A stretch of DNA of 64,000 nt from the NCBI RefSeq assembly GCF_013167455.1, contig NZ_CP038328.1. The stretch is one strand, 5' to 3'. The position numbers were made by a program. Every line of letters starts with the position of its first letter. The first letter of the stretch is position 1. The stretch is from Escherichia coli O157:H7 (GTDB lineage: Bacteria; Pseudomonadota; Gammaproteobacteria; Enterobacterales; Enterobacteriaceae). Below, one piece after another: positions 9,101-12,100 of this stretch.

Positions 9101-12100
9101 TATCGGCTTCTTCGTGGCGATGGCGGTCGCGGTGCATCGTGGAAATCTGTTCCGCACCTTAATCTCGGGTGTCATCATTATGAGCATCACCCTGTGGATC
9201 GCGACGCAAACTATTGGTTTGCACACCCAACTGGCGGCTAATGCTGGGGCGTTAAAAGCCGGGGGTATGGTGGCTTCAATGGATCAGGGCGGTTCTCCCA
9301 TTACCTGGTTACTGATTCAGGTTTTCTCCCCGCAAAATATTCCCGGTTTCATTATTATCGGCGCAATTTATCTTACCGGTATTTTCATGACCTGGCGTAG
9401 AGCGCGTGGCTTTATTAAACAAGAGAAAGTCGTTCTCGCAGAATAATTTTTACCTGAGGGGGAGGTTATCCCCCTTAACAATTAGGAGTTTTTATGAAAT
9501 CAGTGGTGAATGATACTGATGGTATCGTGCGCGTTGCAGAAAGCGTCATTCCTGAAATTAAACATCAGGATGAGGTGCGGGTAAAAATTGCCAGCTCGGG
9601 CTTATGTGGTTCCGATTTACCCAGGATATTTAAAAATGGTGCACATTATTATCCAATAACGTTAGGCCATGAATTTAGCGGCTATATTGATGCGGTAGGA
9701 TCCGGTGTTGATGATTTACACCCTGGCGATGCGGTTGCCTGTGTGCCGTTATTACCCTGTTTTACTTGTCCAGAGTGTTTGAAAGGGTTTTATTCCCAGT
9801 GCGCAAAATATGATTTTATTGGCTCACGGCGTGATGGTGGATTTGCCGAATATATTGTCGTTAAGCGAAAAAATGTCTTTGCTCTACCCACGGATATGCC
9901 TATTGAGGATGGGGCTTTTATTGAGCCGATTACCGTTGGCCTGCATGCTTTTCATTTAGCGCAAGGTTGTGAGAATAAAAACGTTATTATTATTGGTGCC
10001 GGAACCATTGGCCTGCTGGCTATTCAGTGCGCTGTCGCGCTGGGAGCAAAGAGTGTGACGGCTATCGACATTAGCTCAGAAAAACTGGCACTGGCAAAAT
10101 CTTTCGGTGCGATGCAAACATTTAACAGTAGCGAAATGAGCGCGCCGCAAATGCAGAGCGTTTTACGCGAACTGCGCTTTAATCAGCTTATCCTCGAGAC
10201 GGCTGGCGTACCGCAAACTGTCGAACTGGCGGTAGAGATTGCCGGTCCTCATGCCCAACTGGCACTGGTGGGCACGTTGCATCAGGATCTGCATTTAACA
10301 TCGGCAACGTTTGGCAAAATATTGCGTAAAGAGCTGACGGTTATCGGCAGTTGGATGAACTACTCCAGCCCTTGGCCGGGGCAGGAGTGGGAAACGGCGA
10401 GCCGGTTGCTGACAGAACGTAAGTTAAGCCTGGAGCCATTAATCGCTCACCGTGGAAGCTTTGAAAGCTTCGCCCAGGCGGTGCGTGACATCGCTCGTAA
10501 TGCTATGCCGGGCAAAGTGTTGCTCATTCCCTGAAACCGCGGGCCAGCGTGATGCTGGCCCGGTATTGTGCAAAACAGATCATTCACCAATGGTCCCCCT
10601 TCGTTTACACTAGCCACAATTGAATATGGGTAAATGACGATGAATTCATTCGAGCGAAGGAATAAGATCATCCAATTAGTGAATGAACAGGGAACCGTGC
10701 TTGTTCAGGATCTGGCGGGAGTATTTGCTGCCTCGGAAGCGACAATCCGTGCCGATTTGCGCTTTCTCGAACAAAAAGGCGTGGTTACGCGCTTTCATGG
10801 CGGTGCGGCGAAAATAATGTCTGGTAATAGTGAAACCGAGACCCAGGAAGTCGGGTTTAAAGAGCGATTTCAGCTTGCCAGCGCGCCAAAAAACAGAATA
10901 GCGCAGGCGGCAGTCAAAATGATCCACGAAGGGATGACCGTTATTCTCGACAGCGGAAGTACGACAATGCTTATCGCCGAAGGATTAATGACCGCCAAAA
11001 ATATCACGGTGATTACCAACAGTCTCCCGGCAGCGTTTGCCCTTTCCGAAAATAAAGACATTACTCTGGTCGTCTGTGGTGGCACGGTCCGCCATAAAAC
11101 GCGCTCGATGCATGGTTCCATTGCCGAGCGTTCATTGCAGGATATTAATGCCGATTTAATGTTTGTCGGTGCTGATGGTATTGATGCGGTTAATGGTATT
11201 ACGACCTTTAATGAAGGTTATTCGATTAGCGGGGCGATGGTCACCGCCGCAAATAAAGTGATTGCCGTTCTCGATTCATCGAAATTTAATCGTCGCGGTT
11301 TTAATCAGGTACTGCCAATCGAAAAAATTGACATTATTATTACCGATGATGCCGTGTCAGATGTGGATAAACTGGCATTGCAGAAGACACGGGTAAAATT
11401 AATTACGGTGTAGTATTGTTCTGTATGCCGGATAAGGTGTTTACACCGCATCCGGCATTACGGATTCTCCCTGGTTCAAGAGAGAATAGTTTGATTAACG
11501 CAATAATGGACAATCTGGTGGTAATCGACAACGCAACGCCGCCGGAAGTATTTCAATATGGAAGTTTTGCCCACTCAACGGTTCGCCATCAAGATTAAAA
11601 GTGATTTCGTGTGGGGCTTGTATATCAAACCACGACGAAGCGCCTTCGATAATATTCGGGTTATCTTCGTCAGATTTTAAGGTTGATACGAGAGCCGGAA
11701 GAATTTCATCGCCGGTAAAAATGCGCAGTTGCAGCAAGCCATCGTTAATTAACGCGTTCGGGCACAATTGTTGACCGCCACCGGCCTGACGCCCGTTACC
11801 AATACCAATGACCAGGGCGTCACCTTGCCAGTGAAAGTTTTCACCGCGGATTTCACAACGGTCCGGTTGCAGAGTATCCATGCGCATTAAGCCATGAATG
11901 ATGTAAGAGACGCCACCCAGCGCGGCTTTTAATTTTTCCGGCGTTTCTGTGGTAATACGCGTCCCAAATCCGCCTGTCGCCATATTAATAAAACAGGTTT
12001 GTTTGTTGACCTGCGCCATATCTATCGCAATGGCGTTACCGGCAATTGCCAGTTTCAGCGCCTTATCCAGTGCCTCAGGAATCCCTACACTGGTGGCAAA

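What the first reader, a model, noticed from the sequence alone, without database searches (positions are those of the whole stretch)
10634..11413. gatR is a single uninterrupted ORF
Seen: a continuous 259-aa DeoR-type ORF with no insertion sequence. Established knowledge, from memory: in K-12 MG1655 gatR is disrupted by an IS element, making the gat operon constitutive. Inference: galactitol catabolism should be inducible and repressed in this strain.
Basis: partly seen in the sequence, partly recalled or inferred. Interest (0 to 1): 0.3.

Follow-up and report, generated by a model that had tools for sequence, protein, structure and literature searches.

The report
Intact gatR repressor, ordinary wild-type state
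The window carries a complete galactitol-operon repressor gene (gatR), which is the normal condition in wild E. coli including O157:H7; the broken copy in K-12 is the laboratory oddity, so the finding is correct but ordinary.

Summary
ORF 10634..11413 (+) is open for 259 codons with no inserted element. The likelier start is the ATG at 10640 (257 aa), which RefSeq uses and where all orthologues begin (MNSFERR). The protein has a DeoR HTH domain and a DeoRC sensor domain. It lies directly after an intact gatYZABCD and before yegS, in DNA 100% identical to E. coli O157:H7 EDL933 and Sakai.

MG1655 gatR is a pseudogene split by IS3E, at the site matching window 10936-10938. That exact junction occurs in 344 of 5426 complete E. 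coli genomes. A separate IS1A insertion occurs in 36 BL21-type genomes. About 4700 genomes carry an uninterrupted gatR region.

The window's GatR differs by one conservative residue (Asp for Glu, at a position variable among orthologues) from the E. coli HS allele. That allele restored regulated gat expression when put into MG1655 (PMC5850726). dN/dS is about 0.01-0.03. The core blocks of the gatY promoter are invariant across lineages.

Repressed, galactitol-inducible expression is therefore the best-supported inference. It is not shown directly for this strain. Already known; low interest.

The parts
10640..11413 (+). gatR coding sequence, 257 aa plus stop. The longest ORF starts two codons earlier at 10634 (259 aa).
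   Evidence: ORF. PGAP CDS 10640..11413, WP_001303580.1, in EDL933, whose locus coordinates equal window coordinates. All aligned orthologues start MNSFERR.
10655..10813 (+). N-terminal DeoR-type helix-turn-helix DNA-binding domain (residues 8-60 of the 259-aa ORF).
   Evidence: Pfam PF08220 HTH_DeoR, E=1.3e-16, 60.5 bits against a cutoff of 21.
10886..11347 (+). C-terminal DeoRC effector (sugar-phosphate) sensor and oligomerisation domain (residues 85-238 of the 259-aa ORF).
   Evidence: Pfam PF00455 DeoRC, E=2.6e-51. Weak RpiA-like similarity. The only solved relative by sequence is the DeoR C-terminal domain 7l6l, E=9.8e-12.
10936..10938 (+). Unoccupied target site (GAC) where IS3E sits in K-12 gatR. 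It is continuous here.
   Evidence: K-12 junctions ...GGGATGAC|TGATCC...(IS3)...GATCA|GACCGTT. MG1655 annotation of IS3E inside gatR. The window reads gggatgaccgtt without interruption.
11360..11362 (+). Codon GAT = Asp (residue 243 of 259, or 241 of 257). This is the only amino-acid difference from the GatR allele common to HS, reconstructed K-12 and four other strains, which have Glu.
   Evidence: The position is E/D/K/A among orthologues and lies outside the Pfam DeoRC match.
10540..10562 (+). GC-rich 9-bp hairpin just after the gatD stop, without a U-tract. It may be a partial terminator or an mRNA-end stabiliser between gatD and gatR.
   Evidence: RNA fold -21.1 kcal/mol, z=-3.1. The 105-bp gatD-gatR spacer is identical in window, HS and MG1655.
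5165..10534 (+). [quoted passage not shown] All six reading frames are intact.
   Evidence: ORF lengths 284/420/150/94/451/346 aa with no internal stops; GatA and GatC identical to HS. No pseudogene flags in EDL933. MG1655, by contrast, also has a gatC pseudogene.
5045..5164 (+). gatY promoter and presumed operator region. Contains a sigma70-like TCGACA-18-CATTAT (5100-5129), a CRP-like TGTGA (5087-5091), five TTTCA/TGAAA motifs, and the inverted repeat ATTTCA-N8-TGAAAT (5120-5139) across the -10.
   Evidence: Promoter scan. Motif count 5 against 0.53 expected, 0 of 5000 shuffles reaching it. Blocks 5068-5074, 5076-5099 (apart from 5081), 5105-5118, 5120-5129 and 5131-5144 are invariant in 9 E. 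coli lineages. The assignment as GatR operator is inference.

Best explanation
This is the wild-type, functional gatR gene of E. coli O157:H7. It encodes a DeoR-family repressor: an N-terminal HTH domain binds DNA and a C-terminal DeoRC domain senses a sugar phosphate. Without galactitol it binds operators at the gatY promoter and shuts off gatYZABCD (galactitol PTS, galactitol-1-phosphate dehydrogenase, tagatose-bisphosphate aldolase). When galactitol is taken up and phosphorylated, a pathway intermediate binds the sensor domain and releases the repressor. That intermediate is probably galactitol-1-phosphate or tagatose-6-phosphate, by analogy with other DeoR-family regulators. CRP-cAMP is also likely to be needed for transcription. 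Shown here: gene integrity, identity, synteny, purifying selection, an intact target operon and a conserved promoter core. Taken from the literature: an almost identical allele restores regulation in K-12. Inferred: the identity of the operators and the inducer, and that regulation operates in this strain.
For: The ORF is intact. It has the HTH_DeoR plus DeoRC architecture. Gene order is fbaB-gatYZABCD-gatR-yegS, as in HS and K-12. The protein is 256/257 identical to HS GatR, the allele that restored a regulated gat operon in MG1655 (PMC5850726). The one difference, Glu to Asp, falls at a position where orthologues carry E, D, K or A. dN/dS is 0.012-0.029 against four lineages. All six gat structural genes are intact. 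The -10 hexamer, the flanking inverted repeat and the CRP-like block of gatYp are invariant in 9 lineages. TTTCA/TGAAA motifs are about ten-fold enriched in the promoter. O157:H7 isolates oxidise galactitol in Biolog assays (PMC4809568). Loss of gatR in K-12 goes with high gat expression (PMC3446290).
Against: There is no expression measurement for the gat operon of O157:H7 with and without galactitol. The one EDL933 transcriptome I found reports a different 'galactitol' PTS (z4875-z4877), not gatABC. The gatY promoter region of typical O157:H7 differs at 9-10 of 116 positions from K-12/HS. Two of its alleles (G at 5119, T at 5149) were seen in none of the 8 other lineages aligned. One of these abuts the candidate operator half-site, so quantitative differences in repression cannot be excluded. 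No sigma70-like promoter for gatR itself passed the scan threshold. The primary papers defining the GatR operators and inducer could not be read.
Confidence: 0.88

Rival explanations
1. The gene is intact but the O157:H7 allele (Asp instead of Glu at residue 241/243) or its expression is defective, so the gat operon is effectively constitutive, as in K-12.
For: The substitution is specific to the O157:H7-type allele among the 8 E. coli alleles compared. No clear gatR promoter was found.
Against: The change is conservative and lies outside the Pfam domain core. Asp occurs naturally at this position in orthologues (P0051, P0057). dN/dS of about 0.02 shows the gene is under purifying selection. 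The gatD-gatR spacer, with any promoter it holds, is identical to HS and K-12.
Confidence: 0.04
2. GatR is functional, but lineage-specific substitutions in the gatY promoter and 5'UTR of typical O157:H7 change operator affinity or promoter strength. Regulation would then be quantitatively different from HS-type strains: leakier, tighter, or with a different maximal level.
For: 9-10 of 116 promoter positions differ from K-12/HS, and two alleles were seen only in the window (5119, 5149). 3 of the 13 SNPs separating the window from the atypical O157:H7 PV15-279 over 19 kb lie in this 120-bp stretch. O157:H7 isolates differ about 3-fold in galactitol oxidation with no coding differences in the gat genes of nine of the ten isolates; the tenth has GatC Ile95Val (PMC4809568).
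Against: Promoter divergence (5-11%) is in the range of synonymous divergence of the adjacent gatR (dS 6-14%), so no excess needs explaining. Most variants are shared with other lineages, giving a mosaic pattern. The candidate core elements are invariant. Mainstream O157:H7 genomes (EDL933, Sakai, 86-24 and others) are identical to the window across 25 kb.
Confidence: 0.07
3. The ORF is not GatR but another DeoR-family sugar repressor (an AgaR or SrlR paralogue) that happens to lie here.
For: The best NCBIfam hits are the AgaR and SrlR models. RefSeq names the protein only generically.
Against: Both hits are below the curated equivalog cutoffs: 232.6 against 260, and 226.1 against 350. The gene is the positional and sequence orthologue (99.6%) of MG1655 gatR b4498 and of the HS gene used as gatR. 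Several sources name close orthologues 'galactitol utilization operon repressor'.
Confidence: 0.01

Closest known systems
gatR (b4498) of E. coli K-12 MG1655, a pseudogene interrupted by IS3E
   Same: Same locus and same flanking genes. The reconstructed K-12 coding sequence is 774 nt, differing from the window at 11 nt and 1 aa.
   Different: K-12 carries the 1258-bp IS3E after gene nt 305, with a GAC duplication; the window does not. K-12 MG1655 also has a gatC frameshift. The K-12 junction is confined to 344 of 5426 complete genomes; all four examples inspected are laboratory strains.
GatR of commensal E. coli HS (WP_001295426.1), the allele shown to restore regulated gat expression in MG1655 (PMC5850726)
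   Same: 256 of 257 residues identical, with the same length, context and upstream spacer.
   Different: Glu (HS) against Asp (window) at residue 241. There are 10 synonymous differences. The gatY promoter differs at 10 of 116 positions.
gatR::IS1A of E. coli BL21 and derivatives
   Same: Same gene. This is an independent IS knock-out in a second laboratory lineage.
   Different: IS1A lies at a different site, about gene nt 226-237. It is found in 36 genomes. The window is uninterrupted.
GatR of Salmonella enterica serovar Typhimurium
   Same: A DeoR-type repressor of gat promoters whose HTH deletion abolishes repression (PMC7972205). This is the same mode of action as inferred here.
   Different: The gat cluster there has a different organisation and handles tagatose. 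No sequence comparison was made here.
AgaR and SrlR (GutR), E. coli DeoR-family repressors of the GalNAc and glucitol PTS operons
   Same: Same two-domain architecture, aligned over the full length (E about 1e-69 and 1e-67). All are repressors of PTS sugar or sugar-alcohol operons.
   Different: Below the equivalog cutoffs, so these are paralogues rather than the same protein. They have different operons and effectors.

Membership tests
DeoR/GlpR family of transcription regulators | N-terminal DeoR-type helix-turn-helix domain | tested here: met
   PF08220, 60.5 bits (cutoff 21), residues 8-60.
DeoR/GlpR family of transcription regulators | C-terminal DeoRC sensor domain | tested here: met
   PF00455, 174.2 bits (cutoff 31.8), residues 85-238. 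Sequence match to the DeoR C-terminal domain structure 7l6l.
GatR (galactitol operon repressor) | Encoded immediately downstream of gatYZABCD, between gatD and yegS | tested here: met
   Gene order in the window equals that of EDL933, HS and MG1655.
GatR (galactitol operon repressor) | Orthology to a GatR whose function has been tested | tested here: met
   99.6% identical to the HS allele used to restore regulation in MG1655.
GatR (galactitol operon repressor) | Uninterrupted reading frame under purifying selection | tested here: met
   No stop or insertion. dN/dS 0.012-0.029.
GatR (galactitol operon repressor) | Binds operators at the gatY promoter | tested here: inconclusive
   Candidate repeats (TTTCA/TGAAA, inverted repeat across the -10) are enriched and invariant. 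Their role as operators is inferred, and the primary literature was not available.
GatR (galactitol operon repressor) | Represses gatYZABCD, with repression relieved by galactitol or a phosphorylated intermediate | not testable with these tools
   Needs expression or binding assays in this strain.
AgaR (NCBIfam NF040755 equivalog) | Score at or above the curated cutoff of 260 bits | tested here: not met
   232.6 bits.
SrlR (NCBIfam NF007753 equivalog) | Score at or above the curated cutoff of 350 bits | tested here: not met
   226.1 bits.

The most novel reading that the evidence does not exclude
The gatY promoter and 5'UTR (5045-5164) is a locally fast-changing regulatory stretch. In one aligned column three alleles occur (5119: G/A/C). 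5149 is T in the window, A in the eight other lineages and G in PV15-279. Three of the 13 SNPs separating two O157:H7 lineages fall here. Such variants might tune GatR-controlled expression between lineages. They could underlie the unexplained differences in galactitol oxidation reported between super-shedder and low-shedder O157:H7 isolates.
Probability: 0.08. Interest if true: 0.3.

Novelty: already known. Interest (0 to 1): 0.07.

Why it matters
It matters little as a discovery. The finding restates that K-12's gatR::IS3 is a laboratory-lineage lesion and that natural E. coli, including O157:H7, keep the repressor. Practically, K-12 is a poor model for galactitol regulation. In O157:H7 the gat operon should be off unless galactitol is present. 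That is relevant because galactitol is a contested gut nutrient, and constitutive gat expression is counter-selected in the mouse gut (PMC5850726; Eberl et al. 2021, as cited in PMC11445065).

Tried and rejected
(1) I tried to read the primary descriptions of GatR, its operators and its inducer (Nobelmann & Lengeler 1996, PMC178577; the Salmonella gat paper, PMC5287402). Neither is held, so the operator assignment rests on my own motif analysis.

(2) I looked for direct evidence of gat induction in O157:H7. The EDL933 bovine-content RNA-seq paper reports 'galactitol' PTS genes z4875-z4877, a different locus, so it is uninformative for gatYZABCD.

(3) I suspected the O157 gatY promoter was aberrant because it is only 90-95% identical to most E. 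coli. Aligning 9 lineages showed a mosaic of shared variants. Divergence is comparable to synonymous divergence of gatR, and the core blocks are invariant. I rejected this as evidence of loss of regulation.

(4) I suspected the Asp241 substitution might inactivate the protein. I rejected this because the position is variable, and Asp occurs in orthologues.

(5) I looked for a gatR promoter and for TTTCA-type motifs in the gatD-gatR spacer. None passed the scan threshold, and no motif is present. Whether gatR is autoregulated or read through from gatYp stays open.

(6) PMC5850726 calls the K-12 insertion 'IS1' in one place. The genome annotation and the junction sequence show IS3E in K-12, while IS1A is the BL21 lesion.

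Full report
**Observation.** The ORF listing returns one ORF at 10634..11413 on the + strand: ATG start, 259 aa, no internal stop (bases read). It carries a DeoR-type HTH domain (PF08220, residues 8-60, E=1.3e-16) and a DeoRC sensor domain (PF00455, residues 85-238, E=2.6e-51), so it is a real gene and not a chance ORF. No NCBIfam equivalog is reached. The best models, AgaR (232.6 bits against cutoff 260) and SrlR (226.1 against 350), are paralogues.

**Start codon.** The ATG at 10640 (257 aa) is the more probable start.
- PGAP annotates 10640..11413 in EDL933 and PV15-279.
- All 13 aligned homologues, 12 of them orthologues at 71-88% identity, begin MNSFERRNKI.
- The GGG at 10628-10630 is 9 nt from 10640 but only 3 nt from 10634.

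**What the DNA is.** Window bases 1-25000 are 100% identical to typical E. coli O157:H7 genomes such as EDL933, Sakai and 86-24. [quoted passage not shown] By position the ORF is therefore gatR.

**The K-12 comparison.** NC_000913.3 annotates gatR (b4498) as a pseudogene in two fragments around IS3E (insE5/insF5). It also annotates gatC as a pseudogene. The junctions read ...GGGATGAC|TGATCC(IS3)...GATCA|GACCGTT. IS3E therefore sits after gene nt 305 (259-codon numbering) with a 3-bp GAC duplication. The corresponding window positions 10936-10938 are continuous.

**How common each state is.**
- A 120-nt probe across the K-12 gatR/IS3 junction is fully matched in 344 of 5426 complete E. coli genomes; the two fully matching examples shown (ER1709, 'L-form0') are laboratory strains.
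- A second, independent lesion, IS1A in gatR, occurs in 36 genomes, all 25 listed being BL21-type or other B-derived laboratory strains.
- The 960-bp gatR region is found in 5109 genomes, and in 4756 of them as one place covering at least 80%.
- Subtracting the 36 IS1 cases, which the tool joins into one place, about 4700 genomes have an uninterrupted gatR region.
- 317 genomes lack the region altogether.

The intact state is thus the species norm.

**Is the O157 allele functional?**
- Against HS, reconstructed MG1655, 7/2, E2855 and muskdeer13-4, the window's GatR differs at one residue: Asp in place of Glu at 241 (257-numbering), codon 11360-11362.
- LF82 and FDAARGOS_1262 differ additionally at I196V.
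- Nucleotide differences number 11-25, almost all synonymous: dN/dS is 0.012-0.029 and dS 0.06-0.14. The gene is under strong purifying selection.
- Residue 241 lies beyond the Pfam DeoRC match and is E, D, K or A among orthologues from Citrobacter, Kosakonia, Enterobacter, Phytobacter and others.
- The HS allele has been tested. Sousa et al. replaced the MG1655 pseudogene with HS gatR and obtained a regulated gat operon. In mice, de novo IS insertions in that gatR again produced constitutive mutants (PMC5850726).
- MG1655 expresses gatYZC/GatYZAB highly compared with REL606, which has intact gatR (PMC3446290).

**The target.** All six structural genes are intact in the window. GatA and GatC are identical to HS, and there are 1-6 substitutions in the others. 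The fbaB terminator is at 5019-5041. After it, the gatY upstream region holds a sigma70-like TCGACA-18-CATTAT (5100-5129) and a CRP-like TGTGA block at 5087-5091. It also holds five TTTCA/TGAAA motifs, against 0.53 expected, with none of 5000 shuffles reaching five. Among these is the inverted repeat ATTTCA-N8-TGAAAT (5120-5139), which straddles the -10. I take these motifs to be the likely GatR operators, but that is inference.

**Promoter divergence.** The region is only 90-95% identical to most E. coli, which at first looked suspicious. Aligning nine lineages shows 22 variable columns of 116. Most O157 variants are shared with B, B2 or other strains, and divergence is 5-11%, comparable to dS of gatR. 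The blocks at 5068-5074, 5076-5099 (apart from 5081), 5105-5118, 5120-5129 and 5131-5144 are invariant. Two alleles were seen only in the window: G at 5119 and T at 5149. I see no sign that the regulatory target is lost, though quantitative effects cannot be excluded.

**gatD-gatR spacer.** The spacer (10535-10639) is identical in window, HS and MG1655. It starts with a stable GC hairpin lacking a U-tract (10540-10562, -21.1 kcal/mol, z=-3.1). No promoter passed the scan threshold there.

**Mechanism.** GatR is a DeoR-family repressor. Without galactitol it occupies operators overlapping gatYp. Galactitol entering through the GatABC PTS yields galactitol-1-phosphate and then tagatose-6-phosphate. 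One of these presumably binds the DeoRC domain and releases the repressor (family analogy, inference). CRP-cAMP probably co-activates. O157:H7 isolates do oxidise galactitol (PMC4809568). No direct measurement of gat induction in O157:H7 was found, because the EDL933 RNA-seq paper concerns a different PTS, z4875-z4877.

**Verdict.** The induction phenotype in this strain remains inferred. The biology is already known and the state is the wild-type norm, so interest is low. The only mildly open point is whether promoter and 5'UTR polymorphisms modulate expression between lineages. Three of the 13 SNPs separating the window from the atypical O157:H7 PV15-279 fall in this 120-bp stretch. The data do not require that reading.

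Noticed in passing
window 33479-36797, minus strand: dgcE (yegE, diguanylate cyclase) is split into two overlapping ORFs of 949 and 177 aa. PGAP flags it 'frameshifted' in EDL933. E. coli HS has a different lesion (an internal stop) in the same gene.
   Followed up: partly
window 26726-27530, minus strand: Three tandem Sib antitoxin RNAs (Rfam SIB_RNA, 140-145 bits each), with three Ibs toxin ORFs annotated in EDL933. The same mdtA-yegL spacer holds two copies in E. coli HS.
   Followed up: partly
window 13118-13446: Only CyaR sRNA (13279-13364) lies between yegR and yegQ. The P2-like prophage remnant of K-12 (ogrK, yegZ, 'cryptic prophage PR-X') is absent, as it is in HS.
   Followed up: partly
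window about 40357-40975: A RelE/ParE-family toxin gene and an HTH antitoxin gene sit between yegH and asmA in the EDL933 annotation of this stretch. They look like a small inserted toxin-antitoxin module. Whether the pair is present in K-12 or HS was not checked.
   Followed up: no
window 28333-31031: pphC and yegI abut or overlap with no yegJ between them, whereas HS has yegJ on the opposite strand between the two genes.
   Followed up: no
window 5081, 5145, 5149: Three of the 13 SNPs separating the window from the atypical O157:H7 strain PV15-279 over 18,960 bp fall inside the 120-bp gatY promoter and 5'UTR (about 0.08 expected). Position 5149 has three alleles across strains: T in the window, G in PV15-279, A elsewhere.
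   Followed up: partly
window 4888-4958: REP-type repeats between fbaB and gatY match the Rfam family naRNA4 (68.3 bits). The fbaB-gatY spacer also differs from K-12/HS by a 9-bp indel next to the fbaB stop.
   Followed up: no
window 43075-43113 and 57593-57642: A JUMPstart element lies upstream of wza, and an algC RNA motif lies upstream of cpsG, in the colanic acid cluster. Both are expected features of this locus.
   Followed up: no
L010 (BL21 lineage), about gene nt 226-237 of gatR: BL21 and its derivatives (36 complete genomes) carry an independent IS1A insertion in gatR. PMC3446290 reports REL606, another B strain, as having intact gatR. Two laboratory lineages have therefore lost the repressor separately.
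   Followed up: yes
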